DNA of 64,000 nucleotides from Promethearchaeota archaeon (GTDB lineage Archaea > Asgardarchaeota > Lokiarchaeia > Sigyniarchaeales > SOKP01): positions 21,725 through 85,724 of the forward strand of contig JAHLWS010000074.1 of assembly GCA_019057795.1 (NCBI GenBank). The letters are read 5' to 3'. The notes below the pieces were generated by a model, which saw only the letters and a program-made list of their open reading frames with translations, made no database searches and had not been told where the DNA came from. Below are positions 1 to 24,000 of this stretch, one piece after another; positions within the stretch are counted from its first letter, which is position 1; every line of letters begins with the position of its first letter. Made by a program: the position numbers and the translations under genes.

Positions 1-3000
1 AATTTTGGAACTACGAGAACAGTTTGGAATTTAGGAGGCACCCATACTTTAAATCCTATACCTTACCTTCAGCAACCCAACTTGAATACCTTTATTCCGA
101 TAAAGAATTCAAACGATATTCATTTAAATCCGATAACAATTGACAATCTTAACGAGGATACTATAAAAGACGGCGTTATTAAGTTGGCTCTCATTTCCTA
201 CGTTCTTCCAAGTAATGGAAGTTCGTTCTCGTTTGATCGCGCTGATCCGTTTACTCCCATTAGCGTGAGTCAAAGTATTGACCTTGTTGAATCGTTATTT
301 ATCGGAGAATCCGTTCAGTTGATGCATCCTGATTCAAGCATAGAAACCTCTTTGGAACTTGACTCCGGGACTTATCGAGCTGATTTGTCTGGATTGGATA
401 TAGGAGAGATCGTTGCAGTTAAGGGGATTTACGTCGATCCAGATTCCGTAATTCAGCAGTATCCAATCGAATATTTCTGGATTACCGATAGCAACGAACT
501 AGCTTTCAATTCACCGATGAAGCACCTATTTTCCAACGTTTCAATCGAATACGTACCCCAATTACCGCTCACGGAGAATTATCCAGCGGAATTTCCGGGT
601 TTCTACTATCTTCCTAATTCTACGATAGTGGGCTCTACCACGTTCACGGAGCCATATTTCGTTACCAATGTTGAGGACGATACGACATTTTTTGGAACGT
701 ATGTGCACCCCGACATTCCCGTAGGTTATAGCTTAAGCCACAATGAATATGGATGGTACGTAGTCTTCGATCAATCGGTTTCTAATCCCCGAGGTGCAGT
801 CCGCTTTGCCAAGATCAATAACACTTATATTTCCATATTCTCAATAAAAGATACCTTGGCGTACAAATATAATATTTTGGATTCAGCGTCGGATTTTGCC
901 GGAGGAACCCTTAATTTAATTTTAAAAGCCGGATTTAACGACGTGTTTTATTCGGAGTTATCACAAGTAGCGTGCAACGATTATAAAGTAAAAATTACAT
1001 TTTTTAAGAGGGATATTAATGGTATAGAGACAAATATTGGGACGGTTTATAAATTATTAGACTCTTCACAATTAGGTTTTCACAGTTATAATTTAGAAAT
1101 TTCCCTTTCGGAAATTACAGAAGGGATAGGATTACTCGTTGATGTGATAAGTAGAGATTCTGAAAGCGAACTTTACGTTACCGTAGAATCGATAATAAGC
1201 AACTCCAGAGTGGACGGAAACTTATTTAAGGGCTTTTTTGCTCAAGAGATCGTAGAAGCAAGCCTCATTATTGACACTCCCGATTCGGAACTATTATTTG
1301 ACGATATGAAAGTGGAGACGCCTTATATAGAAATACCTCAACTGAGCATTCCGTTGACCAAAATTGCGAAAGCCACTTATCAATTTGATTTAAGTTCGTT
1401 AAAATATAATTTTGATTTTGATATCACAGAGATCCGCGCCGAAGGAGTACCCCTTTCGCAGCAAGATTACGAGTTCGATCTTTCTCAAAATATAGTTGTT
1501 TTAAAAGGGGATTATCGAGAATATTCCGGCTTACTTTTTGCTGATCTGTCATATAAAGCGTTTGAATGGAACGACGGATTCGTTTCTACGCTGGAACCGA
1601 TTTCGTTCAATTTTGCTACCAATTATACGGATAAAATCGCCAAATATTTAGTATTTGACATCAATTTTGACTCAGCCGGAATTCCTGGTTATCAATTGGA
1701 AAAAGTTGATACCGCTTCAGGAAGAGTTGTAATGGCAGAAGAAAGCAAAGACGCGACCTCATTATTGCTGTATCTCTATAATTTTATAGAAGATAAATGG
1801 GAGTTTATAGATTTTGTAGTGTACGATACATATCTCGGCTCATTTACATATGTTGCGGATAGATTGTTTACCACTTTCGAAGATTATTTTAACTCCACAG
1901 GAACAAGTGAATTTGAAGTAAAGCTCATGCTCGCCGTTGATGAGACGGTTGGAGACTGTTTCTCGTCTTCGGTGGGGTTTATTATAGACCAAATTAGCGC
2001 AAATATATACTTTAAATCTCCTAATGTCGAACATTCTGTGAGACCAGAAGTAGTTTTTGACGTCGATTTAACCAAATACTTTACCGATTCAAACATCTAC
2101 GTTGATGAAGTTCAGTTAAAGCTGGATTATATCAGCAAAATAGATAGTTCTTTTGCGTTTTCAGAACACGCTTTAATTGAAGAAAACTATAATTTTTACG
2201 TTTTAAATAAATTTTTAGAATTTGAAGAGGTAGAATTGATTGACAGATCAATAATCCTTTCAAGAAATGCGTTAAATGACTTATTATTATACGATTCTAA
2301 TAACGAAAAGTATTTCGTTCAAATAAAAATCGAGTACGATTGGAATTGTATCCTTGAAATGAACATTGAGTTCGACTCGCGCTTGGAAATTAAATCTTCC
2401 TTACAATTGCTCGATTATGCGCTAACCGTTTCTTATACCGAATACGAGATTACGCGAATATCTGCGCAAGAGACGCGTTCTCCTTACGAATTGACGGCGA
2501 TCTATGCCCCTGGTTACGTTCAGAATGCTACGGGTTTTGTTATATTAGAGACAGACAACATCGTAGATATCGGAACGCTAGCCGGGTTTTTGCGAAACGC
2601 GGATTCGCGTCAGAGACTAATGCTTCGTCAGCAATTATATTATCAATTTTCTGAAAGTACAGATGGGCCCATTGCTCTTTTATTAGATCAAACCTACACC
2701 GATATTAATTTACGATTTGTAAGCCCACTAGGAGAATTAACGCGACCGCAAGATTTTATTTGCGATAATACATATTTCCAGTTTATTGTAGACCACGAGG
2801 TCGTTTCTGTCGAATTACTGTTCTTTAACGGTACCGATTACGAACAAGTCGGATTTTTCGAACAAAGCTTTTTATCGCAGATTTTATACGAATACGGCTG
2901 GAACAATATTTCAGGTGCAACCGAAAAAAATACGGGCGATTTTGTCCAGATAAAGATAATATTAACTGATATTTTTAACAATAAAAACGAAATTATTTAC

Positions 3001-6000
3001 GAATTTTTAGCCGATTTTGATAGTCCATCCCCAACCATTTCTATTGCGAACGGCGTTCAGAGTTTTGAGACCGCCCCAGCAAATCCTCTTACCGGAATTT
3101 CGTTTGAAAGCGGAGAGGATATGGCAATAGCTCGTTGGGAGTTCAAAGATGGTTCGGGAACGATAGCAACTGATACTTACGGCACGAATCACGGAACTTT
3201 ATATAACATGGAAGACGCTGATTGGCAAGAAGGAATTCTAGAGTTTAATGGAACCGACGAGTATATTCAAGTTGCAAACGATAACTATCTCCAATTTGGT
3301 TACTCCGATAGCTTTTCGATTATGGCTTGGATTAAGACCGACAGCGACGGAACAATTATTCGTTCTGAAGGCTCAGTTAGCGGAGCTTACGGATTAGCAG
3401 TACAATCGGGAAAAGTTAATTTTCTTATTGAAGATCAAGATTATAATCTTCTTTCATTTACAGGGAAAACCTTAGTAAACGATAATGAATGGCATCAGAT
3501 TATAGGCATTCGAGATACTTCTACCAATAATTTGATTATTTGCGTGGACGGAAATTACGATTATTCAATAACGGATACTACCGTAAGTTCCCTTGACACG
3601 GGCCAAGATATATTTATTGGAACAACTAAGATCGGAACGCAATTTTACGATAACTTTAGCGGATCGATTGACGATATTTGCATATTTAATTACGCTATAT
3701 CTTCTGATGTTGTAAGCAACCTGTTCTTTTTTCAGATCGAAAGCGATAAAATGGAAAATGCGTGGTTTAGATTCGATGAAGGAATAGGAAACATCGCCCA
3801 CGATAAATTAGGTATCGACGCCTATATTTATGGAGAGCAAAATTGGATCGGGGGTTCAAGCGCAAGATGGGGCGATTACGCGGTCGATTTTAACCCGCAA
3901 GAATACGTCCCACAACAAGGTCTCGATGAAGATTTTGACGTGATTGAAGGAAGCAGCGATTGGCAGGGCGATTTAAGCCAGCAAAATGGTGATTATATCA
4001 AGTTCACCTCGTCAGGCGATCAATTTATCGGAGATCAAGAGTTATGGGACGAGGGCTTCTCTCAATCCGAATCTCACTTACAAAATTCGTTCTTACCCGA
4101 CGCTTATTCCAGTTTTCAGAGCTGGAATCCGCTTTATATGACGAATGGCTTCCCTACAACTTCAGTCGTAAACGATTGGATAGACTGGAGCTTAATTAAC
4201 AATAATCAAGCGTATACATCTTCTTCTTGGAACGGTCTTGGAAATTTTAATTCTCACTTAAATTATGGAACGTATACCGATGTTCCAGCTCAAGATCTGG
4301 TCCCAAGTGGAGATTTTGACATGATAAATTACGAGAATTCAGACTGGGCTGGGGATTTGACTACAAATGACGATTACACAAACTTCACATCAATTCCAGA
4401 CGGGTTTGATTACGACCACGCCAATCACGAGCCATACTACGAGAATTTATGGAACGCAACTACATCTGAAGAAGCAGGTCATTATCCTGGTACTTATAGT
4501 TTTAGGGGCGAAAATGGAAAAACAGATTTAGATATAGATTTTGTCGATAGTTTAAATACTGGAGGCTCAGTTGAGATAGTTTCTGAGTATCAAAATCATA
4601 AGAGCGTGTTGCATCTTACTGAAACTATTACTTATAGAGGATTTTATCATTTTTTCGATTCAAATCAGATTTCTGGAACAATGGAATGGTGGAGTTTAGC
4701 ACCTCAGAACGACGATTATTGTATTGTGAATATTATGGAGGGAGGTTCATTAAGGATGCGAATTGCGTTTGACGATGACGGAGGTTCAGCAAATATTGAA
4801 TACAACGATGGAGCTTGGCATAATATTATGGCTTATTCTATAAATACTTGGTATCATTTTAAAATTGAGTTTGATTGTTCTACAGATACATGGGACATTT
4901 ATATAAATGGCGTTTTGAAAATAAACGATGCTTCGTTTAGCGGAGATGCGAGTTATATTGATAGGATTGATTATGATAACGAATTAGATGCAGAATCGTA
5001 TTACGATGCTTTTGGCTTTTCTTGGGATTCTAACTATACTTTAGGAGATAATTGGCATTACGATTATCATCAAGGAAGTCAAACGTTTGAGAATTATAAT
5101 ACAAGTTCTTATGGAGATTATTATGGAACTTACTCTTTTACAGATGATACAGCTGGAGGCAATCCAACAGGATGGGGTATAAGTGAAACTGGTGGAACTG
5201 TTAATGTCGTTGCTGAAAAAGACAATCACAAAAAAGTCTTAGAATTATATGACGATGATGCTGAAAATAGGGTTAGTGCCCTTAATAGTTTTACAATTCA
5301 GACAGATGCAACTATTGAGTTTTGGTGGGCACATGAAGCATCCTTGTCTTATCATCACTATCTTCATCTGAGAATCAGAGAAGGTGGTACTGAGCGCGTT
5401 AGAATTTTGTTTAGTTATCAAGCAGTAGGACAAATTGTGAGCCATGATGGAAGTGCTTATGTGTCAATTGTTACAGGTCTATCAAGTAATACATTCTATC
5501 ATATAAAATTAGTACTAGACGATTCTGCAAATACCTTCAAATGTTATGTTGATGGAGTAGATAAAGGGACATTCGATTATTTTTCTAATTCGATAGTAGG
5601 GATTGATAGCATTTATATGCTGACAAGAGGTGGTAATAGTGGTGGAGCTTTTACTCATTGGTTTGATGCATTTGGATATTCTGGGGATAATTACGAGATA
5701 GGAGATAACATTAATCCTTATGGAATATTGCCAGAATTAAAAAACGATGGTTGGAATATTGATGCAGGAGCAGGTAGTTCAGTAAGAATAACTGGAGAAG
5801 ATACATCTCATAAAAAAAATCTTGAACTTTTATTACCAGTTGATAGTTATGCTGGATTATACAACGATTTTGACAGTGGCCAAACGTCTGGAACGGTAGA
5901 GTTTTGGTTTAAAACTACTGATTATTGGGATCCGAATCAAATGCACGTAGAAGACGGGTCGTCGGCTGATTCTCTTTATTTTTGGGTTGACGAAGGGCAA

Positions 6001-9000
6001 TTTCGATATACCGACGATTCAGGAACTCATAACATAGTTGCTTGTGCGAACAATGTTTGGCATCACGTTAAGCTTAGCTTTAATTTAACAACTGGAAGTC
6101 CTACAACTAACTGGTGGGCCTGTTGGATTAACGACGTATATTACGGGTCTTATGTTGACGGATTTAACGGAGATCCTTCTGCAATGGACAGAACTATGTT
6201 TAAGTCAGATGGACACGTTACGCCTCATTGGATGTATATCGATGCCGTTGGTTATTCGTGGGACCCCAATTACGAAATAGGAGATAATTATCTGTTTAAT
6301 ATTCATTATAAGAATCACATTTACGCTCCAGGTGGTACAAATGCCGCGTGGACTATGGACCCATTATATATGCAAAGTGGCTTTCCTGATAAGACGGTAA
6401 ACGAAGGTTTTAGCGGCTGGACTCCGAACTCTGATTCGGATTATACAACGGTATCTTGGGACGGGAACGGGAACTTTGATAACGCCGTTAAGAAAAGAAA
6501 CGTAGCGAGCGTCACGCACGACGCATCTTGGGGTTCGGGGGCAATGTCCAATTTCTATACCGATAATGATCAATATTACAACATATATCGGTCAACGTAT
6601 AATAATTTGGATAGTGGTTCTTATAGGTTGGTATCTGATAACGGAAATACGCTTACCGATGTAATTCCTTCTGATCAGGGAAATTATCAAGAGCAGAGAG
6701 ACGATACGGGGTGGTCTCAATATACTGATGATAGTAAGGTTAGACGCTTTAGATATACTCGCCAGACTACATTGCCGGGCTGGACGCTTGAAGTTTATGA
6801 CGAATACAGCGTTTCTGCAAGCGTGTCTAATCCCCCTTCAGGGAAGTCGTGGGTTGCTCAAGATTTGTCTATAGAATTTAGGGAAGCTACTTGGAAAATT
6901 TATGGAGGTTCAGGTTCATGGATTTACCATCAAGCTTATCATGATACTAGTGGGTGGGTGACTCTAGGCTCTCGACAATTGTCAACGTCTGATTCTTATA
7001 CGTCTTATTCATATAATAAAAATCCTAATGATTATATGGATGAGAGCAAGAACGTAAGAATGAGAGTTAAGATCGTGGTTCCGTGCGCGAACTACGGTGT
7101 CTTTGTGGAGCGCGCGAAGTTTCAGTATGATATTGACCTTTGCGGAGTTCTAGTGCATTGGAAAGCAAACGAGGTTGACCCCAGAATTAATTTTGAATCC
7201 GGTTTATTTAACGGAGCACGTGAATTCAGATTATTTTTTCAGGGAATAACCTCTCAAGGGATTGCGGATTTATATGTGTTAGAAGGCGAATATTGGGTAA
7301 AGCGGATTAGTGATATTGGTTCAGCAAGTTGGAAGACGGTGTCGAATGTGTTAATTTATAACGTAAATGATATAATGCTCGAGCTCGGGAATGCAGGGGA
7401 CGTGCAAACTCTTACTATTGATTATCTATATCTATATTGCGAAGATACGGGATCTATACATCAAGCACAGTTAGGCAAGACGATTACGGATCCGTTCCTA
7501 AACCAATACGATTCGTACGGCAATTATCAGAAAAAATACGACGTTACGGTATCGTTTGAATACAAGTTTGCGAAAGCGGTAAACGATCTTTCATATTACT
7601 CTGCGTGGGTTGATATTCCCGGTACCACTGATTCGCTTCCCGCTACGGGGGTATGGACAACTAAGGAATATACCTTTGAGTTTGACTCCACCTCAACAAG
7701 CGGTTTTGACATCGTATTTAGGACCAAAAACGGCTATTTAGATTTACAAAACATGAATTACAATTTCAAGTTCAAATGCCTAGATACATCGGGCCACATT
7801 AGGCTGTTTCAATCGATCGAGGCCGATTATCCATATCAAGATACCTTATCGCAGTTTGTTAAAGATAACGGTCATTTCTACCTCGATTTTACCTACAATT
7901 TTGTCACTTCTGATGACGATCTTACCTATTATAACTCATACGATAGAACATACAAACTTGAAGTAATTGCAACAATAAAGGCGGATGGAGCATGGCAAAC
8001 CGCTATTCCACTAAATCAAACAAGTACTCCTACTTCAGGAACATATAGATTTGACGTGAGGGGATATATGGACAGTCAGGGTTGGAGCACCTTTGAAGAT
8101 ATAAAGCTAGAATTCGTGGTTTCAGGAGACCCATCTTCGTTAACCGTAAGCGATGTTTCGCTATTTGATTATAGAGCTTGGCGTCCCGCCGAATTAGAGT
8201 TCACCATAGACGCGAATATGCCTGATCTAACCGCAGATGACTCTCTTGACCGCGTGGAACTTTTCTATAGATACGACACCGACCCAATTATCGATACTTT
8301 CGGTCTTTACGTTTATAATTACATTACTTCTGAATGGGATTTAATTAACGGCGAGCAACCTACCAGCGGATTCTTTGAGAGCTCGTTTAATCTCACAAGC
8401 GACCATTACGACGCGAGCCATAACATGCAATTCAAGATTAACGGTACATATGGAGTTGTGTTTGAATTTGGTAAACAATTTGATTTTCTGTTGGATAAAT
8501 TTTACGTGGAATACGATTGGACCAGAACTTCAGGAGAGATTTACGCCGATTTAATAAACACGATATACGATCCTCTCCTTAATCGATACGATTCGTTTGA
8601 CGATTATAAAAAACTGTATAACATTTCTATCAATTTTGATTATCAATTCAATACGCAAGATGCAAATTACGGGGATTTTGCCAAGTTTTACGTTGAGACC
8701 ACCGAAGGCTCTTTTGAAATATTTGATTTAACGAAAGACGGACAGGTAAATAACTTACAATGCTCTTTTGAATTTAATTCCACTTCTCGAGCTGATTTTG
8801 ACGTTAAATTTAGAATTTCAAACGGAGATTTAGATTTAAACAACTTCCAGATAGAGGTAACATTCAAATGCTTTAAAGACGATGTTTCGGGTGATAGATT
8901 ATTAGAACAAATATTTGAAGCCGATTATGAAGGCAGTTTAACTCAAGAAGAGAAAGAAATTGCTAATTTTTATTGCGATATTTATTACAACTTTACGACC

Positions 9001-12000
9001 GTGGATGATGGATTATCGTACGTTAACAGTTACGGCGGAAACGATAAGTTGGAAATTATTTATGGTGTGAAAGCAGATGGACAGTGGTTTTCGCAAGTTT
9101 ATTCTACCAGCATCTCCGAATCAAAAGATCCGCTTACATTTAATGTCAGAGATTTTATGGATCAACAAGGAGTTTTCGTATTTGAAGATTTTAACGCCAC
9201 ATTTGTTTTGAGCGGAGATCAATCCGCTTTAAACGTATCCCAATTACGTTTCTACGACCACGAAATAGACCCTGCAGTTGTACATTTCACGGTCGAAACT
9301 CCAGTCAATATAAACGCTCCTGCCGAAGGGATAGAACTGCATTACGCACTTCGCACAAATATAACTCAACAAGATCGATTTAATCTAAAAGTTAAGATAT
9401 GGAATTACGCAACCAGTCAATGGGATTTAATATCCTATTTATACGGAACCGATATTCCGGATTCATTTGAGAAGTTTATCTTTGTCTTGGATAGTTGTTA
9501 TTGTAATCCTGATAATAACATCGTTAATTTAAGCTTATATGCTGAAAATTACGTTGATTTATTTGAGATTCATTTAGATTTACTAAAAACCGTCGTTGTA
9601 GACTATGTTGAAGCGCCAATATTGATCGATACAGGTTTAACCCCTTTTACTTTTGCTTCTTGGATCAGACTGGATTCTCTGACTGATACAGTTTCGCTAT
9701 ACGGAGAATATAACGACCTTACCAGCGATGCAAGAAACCACATCTATGTAAATGCCGACGGTTCTATTTACTTTGCTCAATCCCTTAGTAGTGCGGCAAC
9801 AAGTAATGCCGGCTTGATGACAACAGGGACTTGGATTCACGTTGTAGTAATTAAGAGCGGAGACGAGATCAGATTTTACAAGAACGGGGAACTATTTGGT
9901 ACTCCGGTAATATATAACGAAGATTATTCTGGGCCAACCCCAACTAAAACGGGAATCGGTTCCAGATTTGCCGACTCTACTTGGTATAACGACCCATTAG
10001 ACGGTAGTATTGACGATTTAAGATTATTCAACCAAAGTCTTACGCTCACAGAGATAAAATGGATTTTCGGATTTGGACAAGGAAGATATAAATCGCTAGA
10101 CCGCCTATCAGGGACAGAATTTCAGTTTGTTCCCTTAGAGGAATACAGAATAATCGATTTAACTACGGGCATTACATCAGAGTGGATCACATTCCACACC
10201 CCTCAGATTAAGAAACTAGACGATTTGGGAGACTTACCCGCCAATTTCTCTATTGAATATCGCGTGTTCGATTTCGCCGGAAACGTCGCGTACAACACAA
10301 CTTACAACAACGGCTTTAAAAACATCTTATTTAGCAGAGAGATTGAAATTCCCATTAGTTGGACCGGCACAGAAGAAAATAAGTTAGACTTAAATGTTGT
10401 CGGGCAAGAGAGAGAATTATTCATTGAAAAAAACCCTCAATTCGGAGATGTCTCAAGTTTAGACGTATACATTAACGGCTTCAGATATGGAACTGCAACC
10501 TTAAATGGGGACAATTATAGATTGTCGTTTGGAAGCGACAATACCAAGAACACGTTAATCGCGTACTCGGATTCGCTAATGAGCAACAACATCTATTCGA
10601 ACATAAATCCTTTAAACCACATAAGCTGGGAGGTAAGAGAGGACGATTCGTTTACCGTGGTAAAACACGTGTTGGTCGATTCCGACATTGTAATTATCAA
10701 TCCACTTTCATACAACGCTTCCAACGCTTTAGATTTGAATCACCTCTACGATAGGGAATTCGGGCTCCCTAACTTCGTGAGGATGAAGCAAGCATACTAT
10801 TACGATTATAATATTACTACAGATGAGAGTGAATTACGCTACTTAGATTACGGGTTCGATTACGGAATAGATAGCGATGGACAAGTAATCTTTCCGGAGC
10901 TCTCCGTTGTTCACGAATTATATAACAATCTTACCACAGTTAAGGATGAGTGCGTTTATTTCGAATACAGCGCCTCGGAATTTAGCAATCAGCTTTCGCT
11001 TAACAACGCGGACGGCTTCTTTATCAACTTTACCATGCCAGCATTATATTACGGACACACCACTATCGACACGCTGGTAGTTTCGTTTAACGACTTTTTA
11101 GGCAATTCCTTTGCGAAAAAGTTTTTTGACCTCGATTTACGAGAATATTTCTTAGATAACGTGAAAGACGACTACGCCGAAGATGTATTCGGTTTAGGAA
11201 AGATGATGGTTATTCCGCTCTATATTAATTTGAGAGAATTAGCCTTTTCCAATCCTAACAATCCGTTCGACCTCACTTTATTGGAGTCTATTTCGTTTAC
11301 AATCTCGGATAGTGAAAGATGGCCTGGTTCGTTCGCGTTAGATTTTGAAGACCAGCAATACGAGGTTACTAATTTGCCTTACCAGAGAGCCGGTATTAAA
11401 GATTTAAAACTATTTAACTTGATCAGCGACTCGATTGAGCCAGACGAGAACGGTTTTGTCACTTCGGAAATTATTTTCAGAACGCCTGATTATTACAATT
11501 TCTTTGGCAAATCGGAACTAAAAATTAAACGGATGAATATTGACATAACCGATGTAAAATTGTTCGATAACGGGCAAGAAATAAATAGTTATCGCGAAGT
11601 TGAATATTCCGATTTTATCGAAGCCTATATGATGCACGATAATAGTTTTGCCCAAATCCCACTCGGCGATCTAATAACATTGCCTGTTTCTCTTGTAAAT
11701 GATACTTCTTTAGAGCCTTTGGCGTTCGGTGCTATGTATTATATTACAAAGTACGATAAAAACGCGCCAACAGGATACTTTCACAAATATTATTACAGCA
11801 AGTTTGAAGTTCCTAAGAAATTAGGCGTTTTCGATCTATTCTTCAACTCCCAAGGCACCCCGCTTCACAACATAACTATTGGGAATAACGATATTAAATT
11901 CACGCTAAACGTAACTCAAGAAGAGCTCTCTAATTACAGTCCTATTTACTTGGAAAATTACGTCGACGAACTTGAGTACGGTCATTCGTTAATCTTGAAA

Positions 12001-15000
12001 GGCGCCGTGCTCGATAACGATCAATACATAGAAGAGGATAAGGAAGTTCACAAATACGAATATATTGAAGCGTTAGACGGGGAGACCGTTCATTACCTCA
12101 ATTTAGTATCTCCATTCGGCGATCCTAACTTTATCGACAGGGAAGAATTTGCGATTTATTACATTAACGATAATTTGGAAATAATTCCGCTTTATACCAA
12201 CCTTAGCGGCGATTATTTCAAACAGAGCGATATTTTAGACAAGAATCCCGTAATAAGCTATATTGACAATAGATTCGCCTTAAACATCTATTGGAACGAA
12301 GATTCCGACAGCTTCATTGATTACGATACTAACATATTGATCAGCTACAAAGTTCTTAAGGGAAGACCGATATCTCCGATGTCTTATAGCTCTTTTGACT
12401 CTTACGGAAATAACAAACGGCAAAACTTGATCGAAATACCGTTTGCCAGGTACGACATGATTACGCGCAGTTGGATTACCGAAGAAGATTTTATTGAACA
12501 ATTCCCTATTAGCAAGATGTTATTAATTAAAGAAGTGACAAGTATAGATATTACAATTGAAGGTCCAGAATTCAACGAAGCATCCGTATTCCGAACGGGA
12601 ATTATCGCGCTTGAAGGCGTATACGTCAATAAGAGCTATTCTAACTCGTTTAAACTTGAAAACTCAACCAAATATTCTTGTACCATCGATCAAGATGGAA
12701 AGTTAGTAATTTCCGGTCTTAATTATACGGAAGGAGATGTCTTTAAAGTCGCCTATTACGCATACGACCCCGTAAAAGTCATTCATTCCCTCAATCGGCC
12801 TAATTCGACCATAGATTATATAAAGATCACAAATGGAACCGGATTTGAATACGAATTTATTCTCAACCAAGATTATAAACTTTCGGTAGATGGTTATCAA
12901 ATTTTCTTCTTAGATTTATGTAATACTATTCTCAAGAGCGGTAATTTCTCTATATACGATACTTTTGAAATTAAATACCACGCCCCCTTATCAAGAAAAC
13001 TCGATCTTTCTCAGAATTTACTTCTAATGCTCCAAGATAGCAGTGGAAACGAAATACCAATTGACAGCGTCCCGATCGACAACTTAGGATTCTTTGAATA
13101 CGAGCAACAATTAAGGATTGATAGCCCCCTTTCGATTCCCCTCGGAGGAGGAAGGACTCTGGTTCACATGCTTCTTTCATACCTTCCATTAAACGTATTT
13201 AACAAGTCTTCGGGTCAATTATTCAATATAACCTATGAGGATCAAGACGTCGGCAAAATTTACGGAATTAAAGAAAGTAATAAATGGGTAAAATATTTCA
13301 CGATTACTACGATTCCGGAGAAGGTCAAGCTCACTATGGTAGAAGATCCCACCCAAAACATGATTATTAATCAAAAGTTCTACGAAGAGCGAGAATACCT
13401 ATTCAATTATAATCCGCTTGAAGCGCTCGAAAAGGACGAAGGATACACAAAAGTAATGATCGACGCTTTAGCAAGGGAAGATTACGAATTTACCTATAAA
13501 CTCACGGATTTCGAAGATAAACCGATAAATAACAGCATTGTTTGGCTTCACATTGGATTTATGCCAAAAAGCGAAACCAAATTCCTTAACGAGCGTACGA
13601 GAATTAACTACGATGATTCTCCAATCTATTTTGAATCGCTCGGTACCGAAGAGGTTACTTTTAGAGGTCCAGGAGAAGGCGCAAATAAGATGTTTGGACG
13701 ACCTCTAACTTACGAGACGGATAATAGTATCACGAATCTCACCGCCTATGGTCCTTACGCTTGGATATACGGAGTGACCGATGAGTTCGGTGAAGTAACC
13801 TTTGATATTTCGTTTGATAACGAATATATTAGAGATTTCATTAATATTTTTGGTAGCATAGAGGGTATAAATTCCATTGACGACATGGTACTCTATACTC
13901 GGGCATTTAACACTTATTTTGACTGGGACGAATTTGCCATTGACACACCTAATCAATACATCTGTTCTGAGAACGGGCAGATTTACGATGGTAGTAACAG
14001 AATTGAGAATTATGATTTTACTGACCTAGTACTTCAAGATAGTGCATATGCCGAAGGTATTATCCGATTACACAGACACGATATTGCGCTTGGACTTAAC
14101 GATTATCTCGTGTACAATTTACCCGATTCCGATATAAATGCTCAATACGATCCGATTACCCTTCACTTATATCTAACCGAAGCAACTCCTATTCCCACAG
14201 GAGCAACACCTACAATTGAATCTCTCACTAAAGTATATAGTAGCTCAGAATTAGAACCAACTTCGTATAACATTCTTGAAGATGATTACTTCTATTACGC
14301 ATCTATAGAATTTTATACGCCTTCGGGTCATTTAGTCAAAACGCTTTATAAAGAAATTAAAGTAAACGAATCTTACGATAGCGGAACTATTACTATTGGC
14401 AATGAGACGGTGAAAGAAATTCTTGACATGCTAGGTCCGGGCATCTCTGCTATGAGAGTTTACGTGTTCGAGACCGAATATTATAAGAGCTCTCCATTAA
14501 TTGGTATCCCAATTGAAGTACGTCCTCCCAACTGGATTAAATTCGGAGAGAAGAACACTCAGATCGACTTAATCGATCCGTTTGTATCTGCGTGGGGTAC
14601 GGCCTATAACAACGAAGAGGAGATGCCATTTGAGAGTATTTACCCCGTCTTAATGGGAGCAATTTGGGTCGATCCCGACTTTAACGGACCAACAGATGAA
14701 GAAGAGCGTTCCATACAGGATTATATTGGAATTAATTTAGATTGTACTATTTACAACGAAGACGGTACTACAAGTACATTCCCATTAAGAGATAATATTA
14801 TGCTTCGACCTGGAAACAACGATGGAGTAATGACTTTCAACGCACCTCTTGGACCAGAAGAGCACTTCCTCATGGGTTTACAATGCGATTTGAATTTATC
14901 TTTTAACATCGACTTTAATAAAGATCAGATTTACGAAGATCAAAGAGATGTTGAAATATTTTTATTAGACTTACGATTAGAAGCGAACCCATCAACTAAA

Positions 15001-18000
15001 GATCCAATAACTACTTGGTCAATATACGATGACGGCTTTAGTTCCGGAGAAATAACGGTACTAACTTCAAGCGAATCAATTTCTCCTCCAGAGTCAGGCG
15101 TAAAATATTTAGGCGGTACAGAAAATGGACAGATTTTCGGTCAAGAAATATCTTTCTTGTACTATAACGATTCCTTAGATTACGGTATTGAATCCGATAG
15201 CGAATTACTTTCGCTTTTAGCCTTAACCGAGATTACCGCGTTAAAAGTGGTCGGAATTAAGGACGGTAGCGAATACGAATTTGTTCAAGGAACCGATTGG
15301 ACTATGCCTTACTATCCTTCGGGAATTCTCTACAACGATTCGATCATTCGCTTTTCAGGAACTAATATACCCGACGAAGGCACAGAATTTTCAATCGTTT
15401 ACAAGCTAAAATTTGATTTCGAATCAAAAAGTTTCGGAAAGATTACTTTAGGTTATACCAATAATTACAATGAAAGTTCGATCGAGCTTCAATTACCGGA
15501 CGGATTCTTACCGGATAGCGATGAAGCCGTAGCTCCTATGTTTACTCGATTTTCAGATAATTTTACGGGCGATGGAACCCAAACTCAGTTTATCATGAGC
15601 TATGGACTTAGCGGAGTATCTCAATGGGACGGAAATTTCGTTATATATAACGAGGAAGAACTAATCTCCCAATTTGGAGCCTTTGATGAAGGAGTTTCTT
15701 CAGGACATCCTACTATCACTTTTACTGTAAAACCTCCTCCTGCCCAATCAAAGATTAACGTCACTTACGGAGTTAAATCTCAATACGATCTTTCTTACGG
15801 ATTCCAGAAAATCAATAAGTCTTATAGCGATTCAATAAGGCTAATGAGTAACGATGACACATCACCTCAAATAATTGACGAAGCTGATAGCGGACTGTCC
15901 ACCCGAGTTCTTGACAATTCGTCTTTGTATATTTCATTGGATAATTCGGAAGAAAAAACAACTCTTAAATTATTACAGGTACCTTTATTGTTTGCTCCTG
16001 AACTTAATCTTACTTTTACTTTTGATCAAATAGTACTGGATTATATCGAATCTTTTGATAACGATTTTAACAACCTTACTATCGAATTTAAATATATTAC
16101 GAAGGATGGATATTACGAATTTTATTCCGACCCAAAAATAATCCCTCTGAATTATTCCGAAATTTCGCCTGATATTATAGGTAATAGTTATTCTATTCTG
16201 TATAACAAAGACCTTCAGCCAATTTACGACATGGTTGGGACTGATAGTATCGATATTGAAATAACGCTATATCAAGCGGGAAATAGTGTTAATTACGCTC
16301 CATATATAATTTTAGAAGAATTTGAATATCTATCCGATACCCACATTGTTGAGATGTACGATAGAATGCCTCGTGATTATTACGGAAACATGGATATAGA
16401 CGCCGTAATTAATACGCCTCATTACTTCCAAGTATTCTCGAAACCATTAGTCGATTGTGAGTGGGGAGATTCGCCGTTTAATCTAATAGACGGAAGCGAA
16501 GTTACGGTAGGGCTTAAAGGCTTGCCTAACTCTTCCTTAGTTTCTTTAGATTACGATGGAGAGACTTATGGCATAGACTATTGGGGTTCGGAGAAAACGC
16601 TTCCAGTAAATCTTGAAAATTTCTTTATGATCCCTAACTTGGGAATGTATACAGATACTTACAACATAGAAGAGACTTCTTATCAAGACGGATATTTAGA
16701 CCTCTATTACGGCTCAGGTACGGAAATCGATGGAGAGAAGCTTTATACCTCGACAATCTATATGGATTACGAAAGTAGTCCAGTCGCCGATTATCGTTCG
16801 AGTATTTTAGATAATACTCCAACTTCATGGGCAACAACATTTGATTTTGCTGATAAATTTTTAACCACTTATGAAATGGAAGTAGAAGGACGCGTATTCT
16901 ATCATCAAGTATTTGATTTAGATACGGATATAAACACCACTTCCGAGATGAACGATATCTTCCCTGATTACAATACAAATATCTATTTCGGTCTGCAATT
17001 ACCTTCCGACCTTGATATTGATGAGATTAGAGAGATCGGTTTACCCTATTCGTACGCGTTATCCATTCAAGGATTTCCAGTCGGAGATTATAAAGACGAA
17101 TATTGTTTCGCACTCCCAACGGATAGCGGAGATTTCAATCCGACCACCGACCCATATCTACTCGAGAGTGATACGGAATACGCTTTAGAATTTGACGAAT
17201 ACGGAGCGCCATACATTCTATTCTTTAAACCGGTTGGAGATTTAAGCACTTATACGGACGCTCAAAATAAGATCATGATCGATTATTGGGCAAATCACGA
17301 ATTTATCGATAATCGCGATTATTACATCCACGAAAACCCAATAGACACATTTATTTCGCAGATCGAATGGGATTACAGCTACGTAGATACTGACAATTTT
17401 AACCTCCACCCCGACTTTACATACGATACCAGCTTTACCGTGAATTATTACGCCTTAGAATGGGAAATTTTCAACGAGGACTATATTAAAGACGGCGACG
17501 ATATATTTACCTTCCAACAGAGAGAATTTTACAACATTTCTGTGTTATATACGGGAGATACAAGCACCGATGAATTTAGCGTACAATATATCGTACCCGA
17601 GGGTCAATATTTAGAAGATCATATAATCTTCCCAACTATCTATGCATTGGCTCAGATTGATGACGATGAGGAAACAATGAGAGTAATTGAAATTTACAAT
17701 AGTTTGTTGCAAAATTATATTTCTCAAAATGCTCCTGATTCGTACAATTATACCGTTGATTTCGCCGAAATTGAAACTTATATTAATACCTATTTCCCAA
17801 GCTATCAATTGGTTGAAAATTCTTTTATGTATATAACCACCGAATATAACTCTACTCTACTGCGATATCCAATGGGCCATACGCCGTTCAATTACGACTA
17901 TTTAGGACCAGATCATTACGCCTACCATATCGCTCTATATATCAACGGTGAGTTTATCGCATATTCAAACGAAACCTTATTTAACGATTACGTGTTAAAA

Positions 18001-21000
18001 GTTGAAGATAATTATATTTATTTCAATAATAAGTCAAGAGGTCAAGCAGGTTATATCGACCCCGATAGTGAAATTCAACTAACTTATAAATTTAAACTTC
18101 AACCTGGATTACTTGATAGAAAACATTTTATGATAATTACCTATCCGTGGACGAATGTTTTTGAAACTGTTTTTGATCCAGTCTTAGGTGACGAACAATT
18201 AACTTATAGAGAAAAATATAGAAAATTAAGCGGAGGCTCCATAATTACGCCTTTTGAATATAGCCTTTCTATTAATACGAAATATACCCTTTACTTAAGT
18301 TATCGCTTAAATCAGAGAGAATATTACGAAGAACGGTTTGAGATAAAATCCGAGTACTATGACAGCGCTGAAGGCGGCTACGTGTATAAATTTATTTCCC
18401 AAGAGCTCGATAATTACATCGATGTGCTTGAGGATGAAAAAGGGGATTCTGTTAACGTCTTTTATTTCGATGCTCAAGGCAAAATGATATTCTTAGACGC
18501 TTCTCATTACAAAGTTACTATTGGTTCGAGACAAATAGTTATTAAAAACGATGGAAACGAATTAGTAGCTTCACACGGAGAATTTTACGTGTCCTTTATC
18601 TCGGACTACAACGATAAAGAACTTTTAAATTATCGCTTTTCTTACGACCCCGCAACGGATATAACAGCAACCTTAGATGTAAATTATTGGGATGTTATTG
18701 ACGCAGAGGGTATAGGCGTTATTCCAAATTTAGACGCGCCTTACTTCATGAACGAAGGAGAGACCACTCTGCAAAACGTTGTGTGTCAAGCTTCTCAAAT
18801 TGCTGCGTATCTTAGCGAAGGAACCAAATTAGAATTTAATTTAGAAGCAGAATTACAGGGATACGACCAACAATTGCTTGATGGAATACGCGATGGCAAC
18901 TATTCAGCGCTCTATATTGATACAAATATTAAAAACATAGATAGTTTAGATAATCTTACTATTGAACTCTACGACTCTTCAGGTATAATGTCTGAATTTT
19001 CTCAGAACATGACCAGAGATGAGTTGATAATGTACGACTACAACATCAAAATTAACTTGCCAACAGATACAAATACGCTAAAAAAGATTAGACTCGTTCC
19101 ATTTTTCAGATCAGATAACGAATATAACGCGGATAATACTATAGGCATTAGCAGAATTCAAGCAATGGTCTGGGATAATGAGCTTGTTTCCTTCATGGAA
19201 GACGATCAAGAGTATATGCACGTGAATTTAGAGCACGATTTAAAGACAGATATAAGCGGATACAAATTAGCTTACATTTATAACGATAAATTACAATACC
19301 TCGCCTACCCTGACGGTGTTTCGATTACATATACCAAGGATATGGATATATACACTTTACATATTCCAAGCGTCTATCTTAACCCTGACACGAACGAAAC
19401 TACGAGATTTCTGGAAGGGCAAGAAATTGTTTTGCGATACAATTCGCCCGTAAAGAAAGGCATAGCTGTCGGTATTGGTAAATTATACTTTGAGAACAAA
19501 GGATATAATTACGACTCGCATCCAGATATTCCTAAAGCAGAATTATTACTGGTTAACGCTAATTCTTCGGATACCAACACTTACGCTTACTCCGAATTTA
19601 TTAACGATTATTATTATCAAGCCCCAATACAGATAACTCCGTTTGATACCGAATATAACGGCAAATATAAAGCTATAAAGATCGATTTGAATATATCCGC
19701 TTTATTAGAAGCAGAAGGTCGTTTTGAACTAGATCTCAGTCATATCGTCTTTTCGGTACCGAATCCTTCTTACGAATTAACCATTAGTGAAGTACTTATC
19801 TTGGAAGAATCGTACAAACCAAACTTACAATATGGAAGTATGGACGAACGGGTATGGCAATATACCGAGGTCGAGATGTTTACCGCAAGCGCTAATCCGG
19901 AAGAGGATTCTTATCAATTAGCCCTAGAAAACGCCCCGTTATTCTATCCTGATACGGAATGGTTAGATTATCTCAATATTTTTGACGAGGATGGCAACTA
20001 CTATACAGCAGGAATCACAGGAGACGACCATCAATTACATTTCGAACCTTCAACTAACACGTTTACTTGGAACCCATCGTTTAACCAGTACCCCGAATAT
20101 TTCGGCATGGAATTCGAAGAGCCGTTATCGATTGAGCCTAATAAAACGCTTTATTTCGGATACGTCACCAATACCTCTTGGGCAGAACCGATCCTAATCG
20201 AAGCGGAGAACATTGATCTCGATTCTATTCGCGTAATTTACGATTATAACTATCTACTGAAACCGGAGTTTTACGATTGGTACGCTACATTGAACCTTAG
20301 TGCCCAACATTCCTACGAGAATATCGCGTATTCCTTTAAAGAAGAATCCGAATATAAGGTTGTTCAGTATTATTACGAGGAGTTTACCGTATATAGCGAC
20401 GCTTCTCAATACACCCATACGTTTGATATAGGCGGGCTTTCTTTTGAAAACGATTTTGTCAACTTAAGCGTGTTTAAAGTGGTTGGTTTAACTCCCACTT
20501 TAGAAACCGAAATTTTGACAAATAACGACAATTTTTCGATTAAATTTAATGCAAATACGAAAGAATTAAATATAACAGATTTGAACTTAGAAAACGGTTT
20601 ATTGAATGTTTTTGATCAAATTACTGCTATTTTAAATTATTCATACGGTCCAATTTCTAGCTTTTCCGAGATTTATTTATCGCCCGAATTTAACATTACT
20701 TACTTAACCGATCCGGAAGAAACCTTCTTTAGCAATGTCGATATCGATTATAACTATCGATCAAAATCGGGCACAGCTCTATTTGGAGAAGGTTCTGCAA
20801 CCATTAATAGCGACGATACTTCATTTGTTCCTATTGATTTCTGTCGAAATCCCGATATGAGCACCGATTATCAATTAAACGGCTACGGTTCGGAGTTATT
20901 TGATAATTTTGAGATTTACCAAGACGAAAGCTCTATAATCTACGTAGCAGACATAGATATGGACGGGGAACCTGACTATAAGCACACGATCGATGTAGAC

Positions 21001-24000
21001 AAAGACGGAAAGATCGATGTTATTAGATACGGCCTTGACGATCCGCAGGGTTCCGGTGAGATTTATTGGCATACGGTTATTCAAGATTTTGAAAGTCGAG
21101 AAATTAAAGTAAAGCGAGAATTAGAAGAAGAGAAAAGAACCGAATGGTTTGACATAGATGACCGCGCATTTGCCTATTACGATTTTAATGTTTTGAAATT
21201 ACTATCAATTGTACTTGGATTACCTTTGTTATCGTATCATATTGCCAAAATGATGCTTCCCGACGTAGACTATTGGGCTCAAAAATCTATTCAGCAATTA
21301 GTCCAGAAACAGGAGTACGTAAAATCTTCCTTCTACAGCGTGACGATTGATAACGACAGGGATGGCTACACCGATTCTCAGATAAATTACGAGAAAACAG
21401 ACGTTAACATATATTACGATATTAGCGAATATAAGAAAACAATTATTGCTGCCAAGCATCAAGATATCGTTACCTATTTAGGAGAGTACATTGCCAAAAG
21501 TATAAGTTCCTTATTCACGGGCTCCCGAGACGATCCGATTTTTAACGACCAGTTAACCGAAGCCCATCTCGACTCTTCCGATTTTGGCTCTTGTAATTTA
21601 TATACCCAGATGAATGCAGCTGTTTTGAACGCGACATACAGAAAATTCTCTGAATATACCCTCTCGTCTTATATCGATACACTTGAGCGCTCCACATTGA
21701 CCGTAATCGGCTGGAACGAAGGAGAGATCGAAGAGCAAAGGATTTATACGGACGATTTTGAGAACGGAGAGATTGAAAATGCGGACGACTTTTTCTCGAG
21801 CTTATCGGCAGAGCATTCGGTCACCGACATTGACACGGGACAAGAAGTTACCGTTGATTTCGACTCAGAATTTCCATACACTCATCCAGCTAATATTAGT
21901 TGGGATTGCGAAACATGGGGTCCCGATAACGTTCCTATTAAATACGACTCCTTGCAGGTGATAGGAGAAGATTATTATTATGCTACAAATAAATTCGAAA
22001 AAGAAATTATTATTAGAATTCCGAATCGATTCTCGTTATACAACGATTTTGGTAAAGTTAGTAAGTTCAGCGTGGAAGACGGCGGTTGGGTTGAGTTTAA
22101 AGTTAAAGGTATGCTTATAACCCCTCCCGATGGTCAAGTATATTATACTTCCGATGTCGATTCCTTTGTTTCCGATTCAGCAAAAGTTAGCGGGTTTTAC
22201 TTCTACGTGGATTCTGATTTGAATGGATTTTTTGAAACAGTTTATATTCTAAACGATTACTATACTTTGGATGCTTCAGGTACTCCAGTATATACCGTTA
22301 TGTCAATAGGAATGAATTACGATGGTATTCACGATTTTGCACCCTACGAACGATTATACGACAGAGAGCTCGTAGTCTCTAATTTCGAGACGTTGACGCA
22401 AGAATCCGTCATGTTTGGAAGCGATTGGATTTACAATTTCAGGCACTTAAAGGACGAAGATCTTTTGAAAGAAACCGAATCTAAATTGGAAGAAAACAAC
22501 TTAAAACCAAAAGACCAAATATTTGAGATTTACAAACTCGTACAAATGAGCGAGCAAAACAGCGAATTTTCCGAGTTATTCTACGAAATTAGGCACAAGA
22601 CTTATTCAACCGCGTGGGAGCAATATAAAGAGCAATTAATAGGAGATATTGCCGAACAAGTGTTCATGTCGGTCACTGCCTCCCTTCTTAGCGCGACGGT
22701 GGAAGCCATCCTTACCGGAGCCACATTTGGTTTCGGATGGCCAGCTGCTAAAGCTGCTGCGACTTTAACTTATATGGGAGTCTATACTTTAATGACTAAA
22801 TTTTACGTCGACATAGACCTCGCCAAAGCAGAAGCTGAAAAGCGCTCTCAATCGTTCTACTCGGTTTCGAGCGAGACTCGTGAGCCTACTTCCCTTAACG
22901 AAAAAAACGCCTTGGATAGGGTTCTCGGCGATAGCATGGCGGCAGCACTTATAGGACATCCTGGCGGATATTACACCGAGGTGAGTGGAGGAGAACCGGG
23001 TAATATGTATACAGGTCAGCTACTAGTAAGTCCTCCCAATCTTTTACGCATGCTTTATTCGTTTGAAGGCTTTTTAGATTTACTTTGGGAAAACCTCTGG
23101 AGCATGGGAGAATCGGACCCCGATGTTTACGCCGCTCTCGATTTTGACGACATTAATTTGGATTACTTTTTACTCACTAGCGAATTACCCTCTTACAATC
23201 AGAACCCCTATTACACCTACGAGAACGCGGACGGTATTTTTGATTTGTACAACATGTATGCCCTAAACACCTTAGGCTACCTCGAAACTCAAGTAAGTCA
23301 AGCTTCTAACGGGCAGTACGACGCAATTCGAGCGACCTGCATAGACGGAAGACCACAATACGAGTTTATTAATAGCACCTTGTACCAAGCAGTAAGACCG
23401 CAAAGCGTGTTATATAGACCGATCGTGTTAAGCCAAGAAAGGTACGACCAACTACAACCAGCGCCCGGTAGTTTAGTAGTAAAAGCCCGATGTAAAGATT
23501 ATAGCAACACTATCGGAATAGACGCTTACGCAATGGGCGATGTGGAGCGCGAGGTGTACGCGGCAAAAGTTCCGCTCAACGACAACGGTTTTGAGTACCC
23601 TATTCGACACATTTCAATTGACGTGGTAAAGTACAACATTTACACCGGCTTCAGTTATTTTGTTAAGGGTCTTATCGTGAACGAGTCGGATTATTCTATC
23701 GATCTTGGCAACCTCTATTTCGCGAAATCCATCGAAGCGATCGTATCGGAAAAACATAGCGGGTTCGAAGACTTTTTAAGCTACGCGTTAGCACACGAAA
23801 TAATAGAATCGAAAATTTACTTTAACATTCACATAGTTTTTGACGTGTTTATCCCCGACACCACTGAAGAGACAAGCAGGTTGGCTTTAGCCCAAGCAAC
23901 ATCCCATACAATCATGGATTATTTTAATCAGTACGTTTTTGCGGAAGTTTCGGCTAATTCTATTTCAGAGATTGCCTACACAGAGACTATGACTTTCTGG

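What the first reader, a model, noticed from the sequence alone, without database searches (positions are those of the whole stretch)
3013..10293. Russian-doll (mirror-nested) domain architecture: an out-and-back protein stalk
Seen, outgoing halves in order: Ig-N (DFDSPSPTISI...ISFESGED, 3013), an intact LamG, LamG2-N (3751), B-N (EDFDVIEGSSDWQGDL...DYIKFTS, ~3900), C-N (NPLYMTNGFP...SWNGLGNF, ~4020), B'-N (GDFDMINYENSDWAGDL...DYTNFTS, ~4280), three lectin repeats, C'-N (DPLYMQSGFP...SWDGNGNF, ~6300) and a core (6500-7440). The returning halves follow in exactly reverse order: C'-C (7450), B'-C (8185), C-C (8530), B-C (9271), LamG2-C (9601) and Ig-C (EYRI...EWITF..P...IEYRVFDFAGN, 10141-10293). 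Inference: each domain folds from one outgoing and one returning segment, at least six levels deep. That would make a two-stranded side arm projecting the core at its tip. Standard HMM scans would miss this.
Basis: partly seen in the sequence, partly recalled or inferred. Interest (0 to 1): 0.92.

Follow-up and report, generated by a model that had tools for sequence, protein, structure and literature searches.

The report
Six-deep nested domain side arm
A giant surface protein of an Asgard-type archaeon carries a 2,335-residue side arm built from domains inserted inside domains about six levels deep, an extreme case of a known way adhesins hold binding domains away from their shaft.

Summary

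- **Setting.** Window 1-26727 is part of one 13,771-aa ORF.
- **Ig level.** A paralogous 11,241-aa ORF in the same genome is colinear with it. It carries the Ig-like domain unsplit. Window halves joined versus paralog give 51% identity over 90 aa with one gap, E 2e-29. So nt 3121-10125 is one insertion into a loop of that domain.
- **LamG2 level.** The C part matches PDB 4qvs only from residue 54. The N part joined to the C part aligns across the junction with an unsplit LamG.
- **C type.** AlphaFold2 of a related 1,131-aa nest was compared with solved structures. It places the short N piece and the X piece 435 residues later in one CBM-like jelly roll. Y is a separate domain.
- **B type.** The evidence is evolutionary only. 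B is contiguous elsewhere in the same protein, and an ortholog splits it with 163-170-aa guests at the same junction. AlphaFold never placed the B N-piece with confidence.
- **Relatives.** Three further nests in related genomes keep the same mirror order.
- **Precedent.** Split domains that project ligand-binding domains are known in RTX adhesins, and a six-level nest is known in cyanobacterial RNA polymerase Si3. This scan reported similar nests before on other DNA, in an Asgard protein and in phages.

Verdict: a new, extreme variant of a known kind.

The parts
1..26727 (+). Part of one giant ORF. It is 13,771 aa between stops on contig C74, and the window starts at residue 4864.
   Evidence: It is colinear with a paralogous 11,241-aa ORF on contig C77.
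3013..3120 (+). IgN: the first strands of an Ig-like beta-sandwich, the outermost host.
   Evidence: It is contiguous with IgC in the paralog (HMM hits 5416-5450 and 5456-5506). The joined halves give 51% identity over 90 aa, E 2e-29.
3121..3738 (+). LamG1: an intact LamG jelly roll and the first guest inside the Ig domain.
   Evidence: Pfam Laminin_G_2 matches aa 1113-1226, 40 bits.
3748..3909 (+). LamG2-N: the first two strands of a second LamG.
   Evidence: It aligns to the N terminus of LamG1 (E 0.02) and to unsplit LamG domains.
3904..4020 (+). B-N (BN1): the N piece of a B-type domain.
   Evidence: BN HMM gives 3e-16. The joined BN+Z profile matches contiguous B domains as one hit.
4021..4266 (+). 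C-N (gap1 + CN1): the N piece of a C-type CBM-like jelly roll.
   Evidence: The homologous piece co-folds with X in the AF2 model.
4276..4398 (+). B'-N (BN2).
   Evidence: BN HMM gives 5e-11.
4468..6312 (+). Three ConA-like lectin repeats of the sialidase-CBM-like / Laminin_G_3 kind. They are lateral guests.
   Evidence: Pfam PF22585 and PF13385. The homolog's lectin domain matches 5mqs_A with Z 19.8, rmsd 2.9, 168 aligned.
6322..6498 (+). C'-N (CN2).
   Evidence: CN1 versus CN2 gives E 4e-6. The HMM gives 6e-22.
6499..7449 (+). Core at the tip, 317 aa. It has no Pfam family. It may be a B-like domain followed by a small beta domain.
   Evidence: Homologs exist in P0004, P0013 and G004. hhalign against the B profile gives E 0.006, which is weak. 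The Atlas search gave only unnamed clusters.
7450..8172 (+). X2 (7450-7779) completes C'. Y2 (7780-8172) is a separate beta domain.
8173..8526 (+). Z2: the body of B'.
8536..9258 (+). X1 (8536-8871) completes C. Y1 (8872-9258) is a separate beta domain.
9259..9594 (+). Z1: the body of the outer B.
9595..10095 (+). LamG2-C: the body of the second LamG.
   Evidence: Pfam Laminin_G_3 has its best stretch at aa 3201-3353. PDB 4qvs_A is matched at residues 54-219 of 227, E 7.5e-13.
10126..10293 (+). IgC: the remaining strands of the Ig-like host.

Best explanation
Window nt 3121-10125 (2,335 aa) is a single side arm. It is inserted into a loop of one Ig-like domain of a giant surface protein from an Asgard-type, probably Lokiarchaeia-like, archaeon. 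The loop lies between the second and third strands of that domain.

The arm is built by recursive domain insertion: Ig[ LamG1, LamG2[ B[ C[ B'[ lectin x3, C'[ core ] ] ] ] ] ]. Each host gives one to five N-terminal strands on the way out and the rest of its fold on the way back. The chain therefore leaves and re-enters the shaft at one point, and the core sits at the far end. LamG1 and the three lectins hang off the sides, and a Y domain follows each C on the return path.

Shown or strongly supported:
- The Ig and LamG2 domains are split.
- The C-type N piece and X form one CBM-like jelly roll.
- B has an insertion hot spot between its N piece and its body.

Inferred:
- The arm is a fairly stiff projection carrying five ConA-like sugar-binding domains and an unknown tip, used to bind partner cells or surfaces.
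- Folding must proceed from the inside out. The core folds first, and the Ig domain folds last, 2,335 residues after its first strands emerge.

The arm is an accessory feature. The paralog lacks it, and only 2 of 41 other genomes of the genus have its returning X, Y and Z domains.
For: **Ig.**
- The C77 paralog is colinear with the C74 giant along nearly its whole length (35-84% identity).
- It bridges the arm: A 5801-5904 matches B 5349-5452, and A 8220-8500 matches B 5427-5706.
- IgN and IgC hits are adjacent in the paralog.
- The joined halves give 51% identity over 90 aa, E 2e-29.

**LamG2.**
- The C part matches 4qvs_A only from residue 54.
- The joined halves align at 5-211 versus 7-226 of an unsplit LamG, across the junction, E 1e-7 to 4e-7.
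- A LamG[B] unit with the same insertion point lies in the N-terminal part of the same protein.

**C type.**
- In the AF2 model of G008:C47, the CN piece (residues 150-190) has pLDDT 78-90 between poorly modelled flanks.
- 49 of 50 top structural matches are single jelly rolls with model range about 148..728 but only 97-137 aligned residues. Examples are 5w6h_A (Z 11.6, rmsd 2.4, 118 aligned) and CBM15 1gny_A (125 of 153).
- P0035 has the second half of CN directly abutting X.

**B type.**
- The joined BN+Z profile hits contiguous domains over profile positions 2-142. It scores 63.8 bits against 44.0 for Z alone.
- The ortholog P0045 has 163-170-aa guests where the window's protein has 6-10 aa.

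**Grammar.**
- G004 reads IgN CN BN CN BN CN core XY Z XY Z XY IgC.
- G008:C23 reads IgN CN BN guest Z XY IgC.
- G008:C47 reads L2N BN CN BN BN W Z Z XY Z L2C.
- P0004 lacks the LamG2 and outer-B halves on both sides.

**Organism.** The genome has four actin-family genes, best E 3e-132. Homologs come from Loki's Castle sediment.
Against: - No model of the window's own arm could be made.
- Both AF2 models are of homologs, with low pTM (0.38 and 0.34).
- The B-type N pieces were below pLDDT 50 in nearly all of both models. In model 1, structural alignments place the second strand of BN next to the lectin domain rather than next to Z.
- Z-like domains also occur in tandem without any BN (P0016 and P0017). 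Z may therefore be a complete fold on its own.
- LamG2 was poorly modelled (pLDDT 35-66). Its split rests on sequence alone.
- The fold-search tool reports only the first and last aligned residue. The CN+X composite is therefore inferred from ranges and aligned lengths, not from a contact list.
- Sugar binding and adhesion are inferred from fold families only.
Confidence: 0.75

Rival explanations
1. Partial nest. Ig, LamG2 and the two C-type jelly rolls are truly split, giving four levels. The B-type N pieces are only tethers or edge strands, and Z is a self-sufficient domain. The architecture is still out and back, but shallower than six.
For: - BN was below pLDDT 50 in nearly all of both AF2 models.
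- Several structural alignments include the second strand of BN with the lectin domain.
- Z-like domains stand alone in tandem arrays.
- Z1 alone matches a phage baseplate domain: 9eui_D, Z 9.0, rmsd 2.4, 104 aligned.
Against: - BN and Z are separated by only 6-10 aa in contiguous copies. The joined profile matches them as one unit, with up to 20 extra bits from BN.
- BN and a full-length Z always occur as a matched, properly nested pair.
Confidence: 0.2
2. Linear string. All the 'halves' are small independent domains or linker motifs. The mirror order comes from cassettes inserted repeatedly into linkers. The chain runs straight and there is no side arm.
For: Pfam recognises none of BN, CN, X, Y or Z, so their domain limits are not known independently. 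The pTM of both models is low.
Against: - The Ig domain is one 90-aa unit in the paralog.
- LamG2-C lacks the first strands of its fold.
- CN and X superpose together on single CBM domains.
- A lectin sits inside X in P0036 and inside CN in P0035 and P0027.
Confidence: 0.04
3. Assembly artefact or decaying pseudogene.
For: The genome is a draft of 87 contigs with 7.5% contamination.
Against: - One open frame of 13,771 codons without a stop.
- The copies are only about 40% identical at the protein level, so they are not collapsed DNA repeats.
- The same grammar occurs in three other ORFs from two other genomes and in metagenome proteins.
Confidence: 0.01

Closest known systems
Ig-like 'split domains' of RTX adhesins such as AhLap and MpIBP (PMC12077191; PDB 9CSE named there)
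   Same: An Ig-like extender domain of a giant adhesin is interrupted after its first strand(s). A ligand-binding domain, often a CBM, buds out sideways from the shaft before the fold is completed. AhLap also has a three-level case, beta-roll[vWFA[insert]].
   Different: - In RTX adhesins each split domain carries one guest of about 150-300 aa. Here one Ig-like domain carries 2,335 aa nested about six deep, with four host families.
- The organism is an archaeon.
- Pfam found no RTX repeats. A type I secretion signal was not looked for.
- The B, C and Y families have no Pfam match.
Si3 insertion of cyanobacterial RNA polymerase beta' (PMC10895346; six-level nest described in PMC13114784)
   Same: Recursive A1-B1-C-B2-A2 insertion reaches six levels and gives an elongated arm.
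   Different: - Si3 repeats one small domain family inside an enzyme and spans about 550-690 aa.
- Here two unrelated families (B and C) alternate inside LamG and Ig hosts in a surface protein. The nest spans 2,427 aa.
- The guests are far larger than their hosts. [quoted passage not shown]
Nested split domains reported earlier in this scan (e1-5296627, a Thorarchaeota-like Asgard surface protein; e1-5326105 and e1-5320722, cyanophage fibre proteins)
   Same: Giant surface or fibre proteins with balanced-bracket nesting four to seven deep.
   Different: Those are self-nests of one small domain. I did not compare the sequences, so whether the Asgard case uses the same B or C families is unknown.

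Membership tests
Nested (discontinuous) domain insertion, A1-B-A2 | The host domain exists unsplit in a homolog, and the two halves are colinear with it. | tested here: met
   - Ig: the paralog is unsplit, 51% identity over 90 aa, E 2e-29.
- LamG2: colinear with an unsplit LamG across the junction.
- B: contiguous copies match the joined profile at positions 2-142, and an ortholog is split at the same point.
- C: the second half of CN abuts X in P0035.
Nested (discontinuous) domain insertion, A1-B-A2 | The two halves pack into one compact fold in a structure. | tested here: inconclusive
   - It is met indirectly for the C type in a homolog. CN and X superpose together on single CBM jelly rolls, with Z up to 11.6.
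- It was not obtained for B, where BN was mostly below pLDDT 50, or for LamG2, which was poorly modelled.
- It could not be tested for Ig or for the window's own arm, because of the 1,200-aa limit and the absence of contact output.
Laminin_G_3 / LamG (PF13385, PF02210) | Profile match above Pfam's gathering score. | tested here: met
   PF13385 scores 159.9 bits over four stretches, the best at aa 3201-3353. PF02210 scores 40 bits at aa 1113-1226.
Sialidase-like CBM (PF22585) | Profile match above the gathering score, and the fold. | tested here: met
   The match is 29.3 bits against a cut-off of 27 in the long scan and 27.1 for repeat 1 alone, so it is marginal. The homolog's lectin domain matches sialidase BT_1020, 5mqs_A, with Z 19.8, rmsd 2.9, 168 aligned.
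RTX adhesin (split-domain adhesins) | [quoted passage not shown] | tested here: not met
   Pfam over all 8,908 residues in the window lists only LamG and CBM families and no RTX repeat family. The secretion signal was not looked for. The organism is an archaeon. The arm resembles these adhesins in how it works, but it is not a member.
Si3 / HABAS (sandwich-barrel hybrid motif) nest | It sits in the trigger loop of RNA polymerase beta' and is built of sandwich-barrel hybrid motifs. | tested here: not met
   Pfam finds no RNA polymerase domain in the protein. The hosts here are Ig-like, LamG and CBM-like jelly rolls.
CBM-type galactose-binding-like jelly roll (for C = CN + X) | Fold match that covers most of a solved CBM domain. 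| tested here: met
   Matches include 8xmz (110-111 of 137), 1gny CBM15 (125 of 153), 9mui (108 of 127) and 7ay3 CBM36 (111 of 124), with Z 7.6-10.4. These were obtained on a homolog model. No sugar-binding residues were examined.

The most novel reading that the evidence does not exclude
B and C are two undescribed 'host' domain families of Asgard archaea. They alternate by inserting into each other's hot-spot loops and so build extensible side arms on giant adhesins. This arm would be the largest heterologous nest yet described: a 92-aa host carrying 2,335 aa, six or seven levels deep. During export, six half-domains would have to stay unfolded until their partners emerge hundreds to thousands of residues later, so the arm would have to fold from the inside out.
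Probability: 0.5. Interest if true: 0.72.

Novelty: new variant of a known kind. Interest (0 to 1): 0.6.

Why it matters
The arm pushes a known building principle, the split domain that projects a binding domain, far beyond described cases in depth and in guest-to-host size ratio. It does so in Asgard archaea, whose cell-to-cell contacts are of wide interest.

- It supplies natural examples of very long-range discontinuous domains for testing structure predictors and folding models.
- It defines three beta-domain families (B, C/X and Y) that profile libraries miss.
- It marks the core and the five ConA-like domains as candidate ligand-binding heads to test.
- The arm is present in one of two paralogs and in few genomes of the genus, which suggests a variable adhesion specificity.

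Tried and rejected
- **Search among giant proteins.** A homolog search of the arm among proteins of 4,899-15,589 aa found nothing. The exhaustive representative search then found 43 relatives.
- **First alignment.** Alignment A1, built for the window's own C' nest, put the short N pieces on the X columns. It was dropped, so no model of a window-own segment was made.
- **Pairwise BLAST.** Joined B halves against contiguous B aligned only the Z part. A profile was needed.
- **LamG2-N alone against PDB.** No match at E up to 10.
- **Pfam.** No family for X, Y, Z, BN, CN, the core, the paralog's Ig region or the contiguous B region.
- **Atlas searches.** The shape search with model 1 and the feature search with the core gave only lectin matches or unnamed clusters.
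- **Fold search of model 1.** The list was filled by the lectin domain, so it said nothing about B or C.
- **Glycosylation sites.** N-x-S/T sites are not enriched in the arm: 19 against 27 +/- 4.5 in shuffles. This gives no support for an extracellular location.
- **Core as a B-type domain.** hhalign gave E 0.006 but probability 6%. It is kept only as a lead.
- **Model files.** Models do not reach the script box, so no contacts could be measured.


Full report
**What is there.** The window opens inside one reading frame that runs to nt 26727. In the genome it is a 13,771-codon ORF on contig C74, and window residue 1 is residue 4864. The genome is a 4.95-Mb draft with about 30% G+C. It has four actin-family genes, best E 2.8e-132, and the window carries an archaeal PINA-type ATPase. 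Relatives of the protein come from Loki's Castle marine sediment. I read it as an Asgard archaeon, probably Lokiarchaeia-like. That is an inference.

**Check of the observation.**
- C-N and C'-N are 37.5% identical over 48 aa, E 4e-6.
- The two returning units align at 34-48% identity, E down to 3.5e-22.
- The three lectin repeats are clear.
- B-N and B'-N are short, but their motif recurs in 19 homolog segments.
- Pfam sees only Laminin_G_3, Laminin_G_2 and a sialidase-like CBM. The other pieces have no family.
- Given the order of the six N pieces, 1 of 180 orders of the C pieces is the mirror order.

**Level 1, the Ig-like host.**
- The same genome has a second giant ORF of 11,241 aa on contig C77. 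It is colinear with the first at 35-84% identity over nearly its whole length.
- The alignment jumps the arm. Full-protein 5801-5904 pairs with paralog 5349-5452, and 8220-8500 pairs with 5427-5706.
- In the paralog the IgN and IgC profiles hit adjacent stretches, 5416-5450 and 5456-5506.
- The window's two halves joined align to the paralog at 51% identity over 90 aa with one single-residue gap, E 2e-29.
- So P0001 aa 1041-3375 (nt 3121-10125) is one insertion into one loop of one small domain.
- 'Ig-like' rests on size and motif only. Pfam does not name the domain.

**Level 2, LamG2.**
- The C part matches PDB 4qvs_A at residues 54-219 of 227, E 7.5e-13. It therefore lacks about the first 50 residues of the fold.
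- The N part aligns to the first 50 residues of LamG1.
- Joined, the halves align at 5-211 versus 7-226 of an unsplit LamG from another ORF of the genome, across the junction at residue 54 (E 4e-7, 1e-7).
- The same protein holds a simpler copy of this layout outside the window. LamG N strands lie near full-protein 915-960, a contiguous B domain at 978-1121, and a Laminin_G_3 body at about 1150-1295.

**The C type.**
- Homologs always read CN, BN, guest, Z, X, Y.
- P0035, a complete 599-aa protein, has no B, and the second half of its CN runs straight into X.
- I folded the 1,131-aa nest of a related genome, G008:C47, which reads L2N BN CN BN BN W Z Z X Y Z L2C. The model is poor overall, with mean pLDDT 61 and pTM 0.34. 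Even so, CN (model 150-190) reaches pLDDT 78-90 between flanks below 50.
- Comparison with solved structures gave the useful readout. In 49 of the 50 best rows in each of two searches, the match is a single CBM-type jelly roll. Its model range is about 148..728, yet only 97-137 residues are aligned. Examples are 5w6h_A (Z 11.6, rmsd 2.4, 118 aligned), 1gny_A CBM15 (125 of 153) and 8xmz (110-111 of 137).
- X is only 107 residues (624-730), and every range starts in CN. So CN and X together form one jelly roll around a 435-residue insert.
- Y is a separate domain.
- The tool gives ranges, not contacts, so this is strong but indirect.

**The B type.**
- AlphaFold did not help. BN was below pLDDT 50 in nearly all of both models. 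In model 1 some alignments place its second strand beside the lectin domain.
- The evolutionary evidence is better. A profile of joined BN+Z pairs matches two contiguous domains in the N-terminal part of the same protein as single hits. One covers profile 2-142 at 63.8 bits, against 44.0 for Z alone. The other covers 7-145 at 46.6 against 41.3.
- The ortholog P0045 is colinear with that region in three blocks, at 41-42% identity and E 3e-19 to 8e-68. It carries guests of 163 and 170 aa exactly where the window's protein has 6-10 aa between BN and Z. One guest is DUF4082.
- So BN|Z is one unit with an insertion hot spot. Whether the BN strands are integral to the sandwich is not shown.
- Z-like domains without BN also exist.

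**Grammar in relatives.** Only 2 of 41 other genomes of the genus have the returning X, Y and Z domains of the arm.

| Protein | Order of pieces |
|---|---|
| G004 | IgN CN BN CN BN CN core XY Z XY Z XY IgC |
| G008:C23 | IgN CN BN guest Z XY IgC |
| G008:C47 | L2N BN CN BN BN W Z Z XY Z L2C |

P0004 has IgN, then CN BN CN core XY Z XY, then IgC. It thus lacks both halves of LamG2 and of the outer B. Lectins also sit inside X (P0036), inside CN (P0035, P0027) and between X and Y (P0018, P0027). Pairs come and go together, and the brackets always balance.

**How it most likely works.** If each host is a compact domain, the chain must return to where it left. The arm is then a branch on the shaft.
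- Its spine is Ig, LamG2, B, C+Y, B', C'+Y.
- LamG1 and the three lectins are side guests, and the 317-aa core is at the end.
- Five ConA-like domains and CBM-like hosts point to sugar binding and adhesion. This is inferred from folds only.
- Folding must run from the core outwards.

**Comparison with the known.**
- RTX adhesins use Ig-like split domains to project ligand-binding domains from the shaft, with crystal structures available (PMC12077191).
- A six-level nest is described for cyanobacterial Si3 (PMC13114784, PMC10895346). The same survey finds inserts usually smaller than their hosts.
- Earlier notes of this scan report similar nests in another Asgard protein and in phage fibres.
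- This case is therefore a new and extreme variant, not a new kind.

Noticed in passing
G000 contig C77, ORF from nt 67769 (11,241 aa); outside the window: A second giant ORF is colinear with the window's giant protein at 35-84% identity. It lacks the whole side arm. Identity rises to 60-84% in the C-terminal third.
   Followed up: partly
G000:C74, full-protein aa 770-1300 (upstream of the window; loci L002, L005): Two contiguous B-type domains and a simpler LamG[B] nest lie here. The ortholog P0045 carries 163-170-aa guests, one of them DUF4082, inside both B domains.
   Followed up: yes
L025 (G004:C75), ORF aa 578-2388: A six-level nest without any LamG: IgN CN BN CN BN CN core XY Z XY Z XY IgC.
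   Followed up: partly
P0036, P0035, P0027, P0018 (metagenome homologs): The ConA-like lectin domain is a promiscuous guest. It is found inside X, inside CN, between BN and Z, and between X and Y.
   Followed up: partly
window 4399-4467: A short motif after B'-N (FDYDH..NH.PYYE.LW) resembles the start of the C-type N piece in P0004 and P0005. The three lectins may lie inside C'-N.
   Followed up: no
window 4001-8000: GC skew is markedly positive here (0.20 and 0.12), against about 0 in the rest of the ORF. I have no explanation.
   Followed up: no
window 24900-26727: [quoted passage not shown] Earlier notes read it as a GIY-YIG-like nuclease with HTH repeats. Pfam found nothing in residues 4401-8908 at E up to 0.1.
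   Followed up: no
G000 contigs C31, C71, C68, C65: Four actin-family genes are present, best E 2.8e-132, full length. This fits an Asgard archaeon.
   Followed up: no
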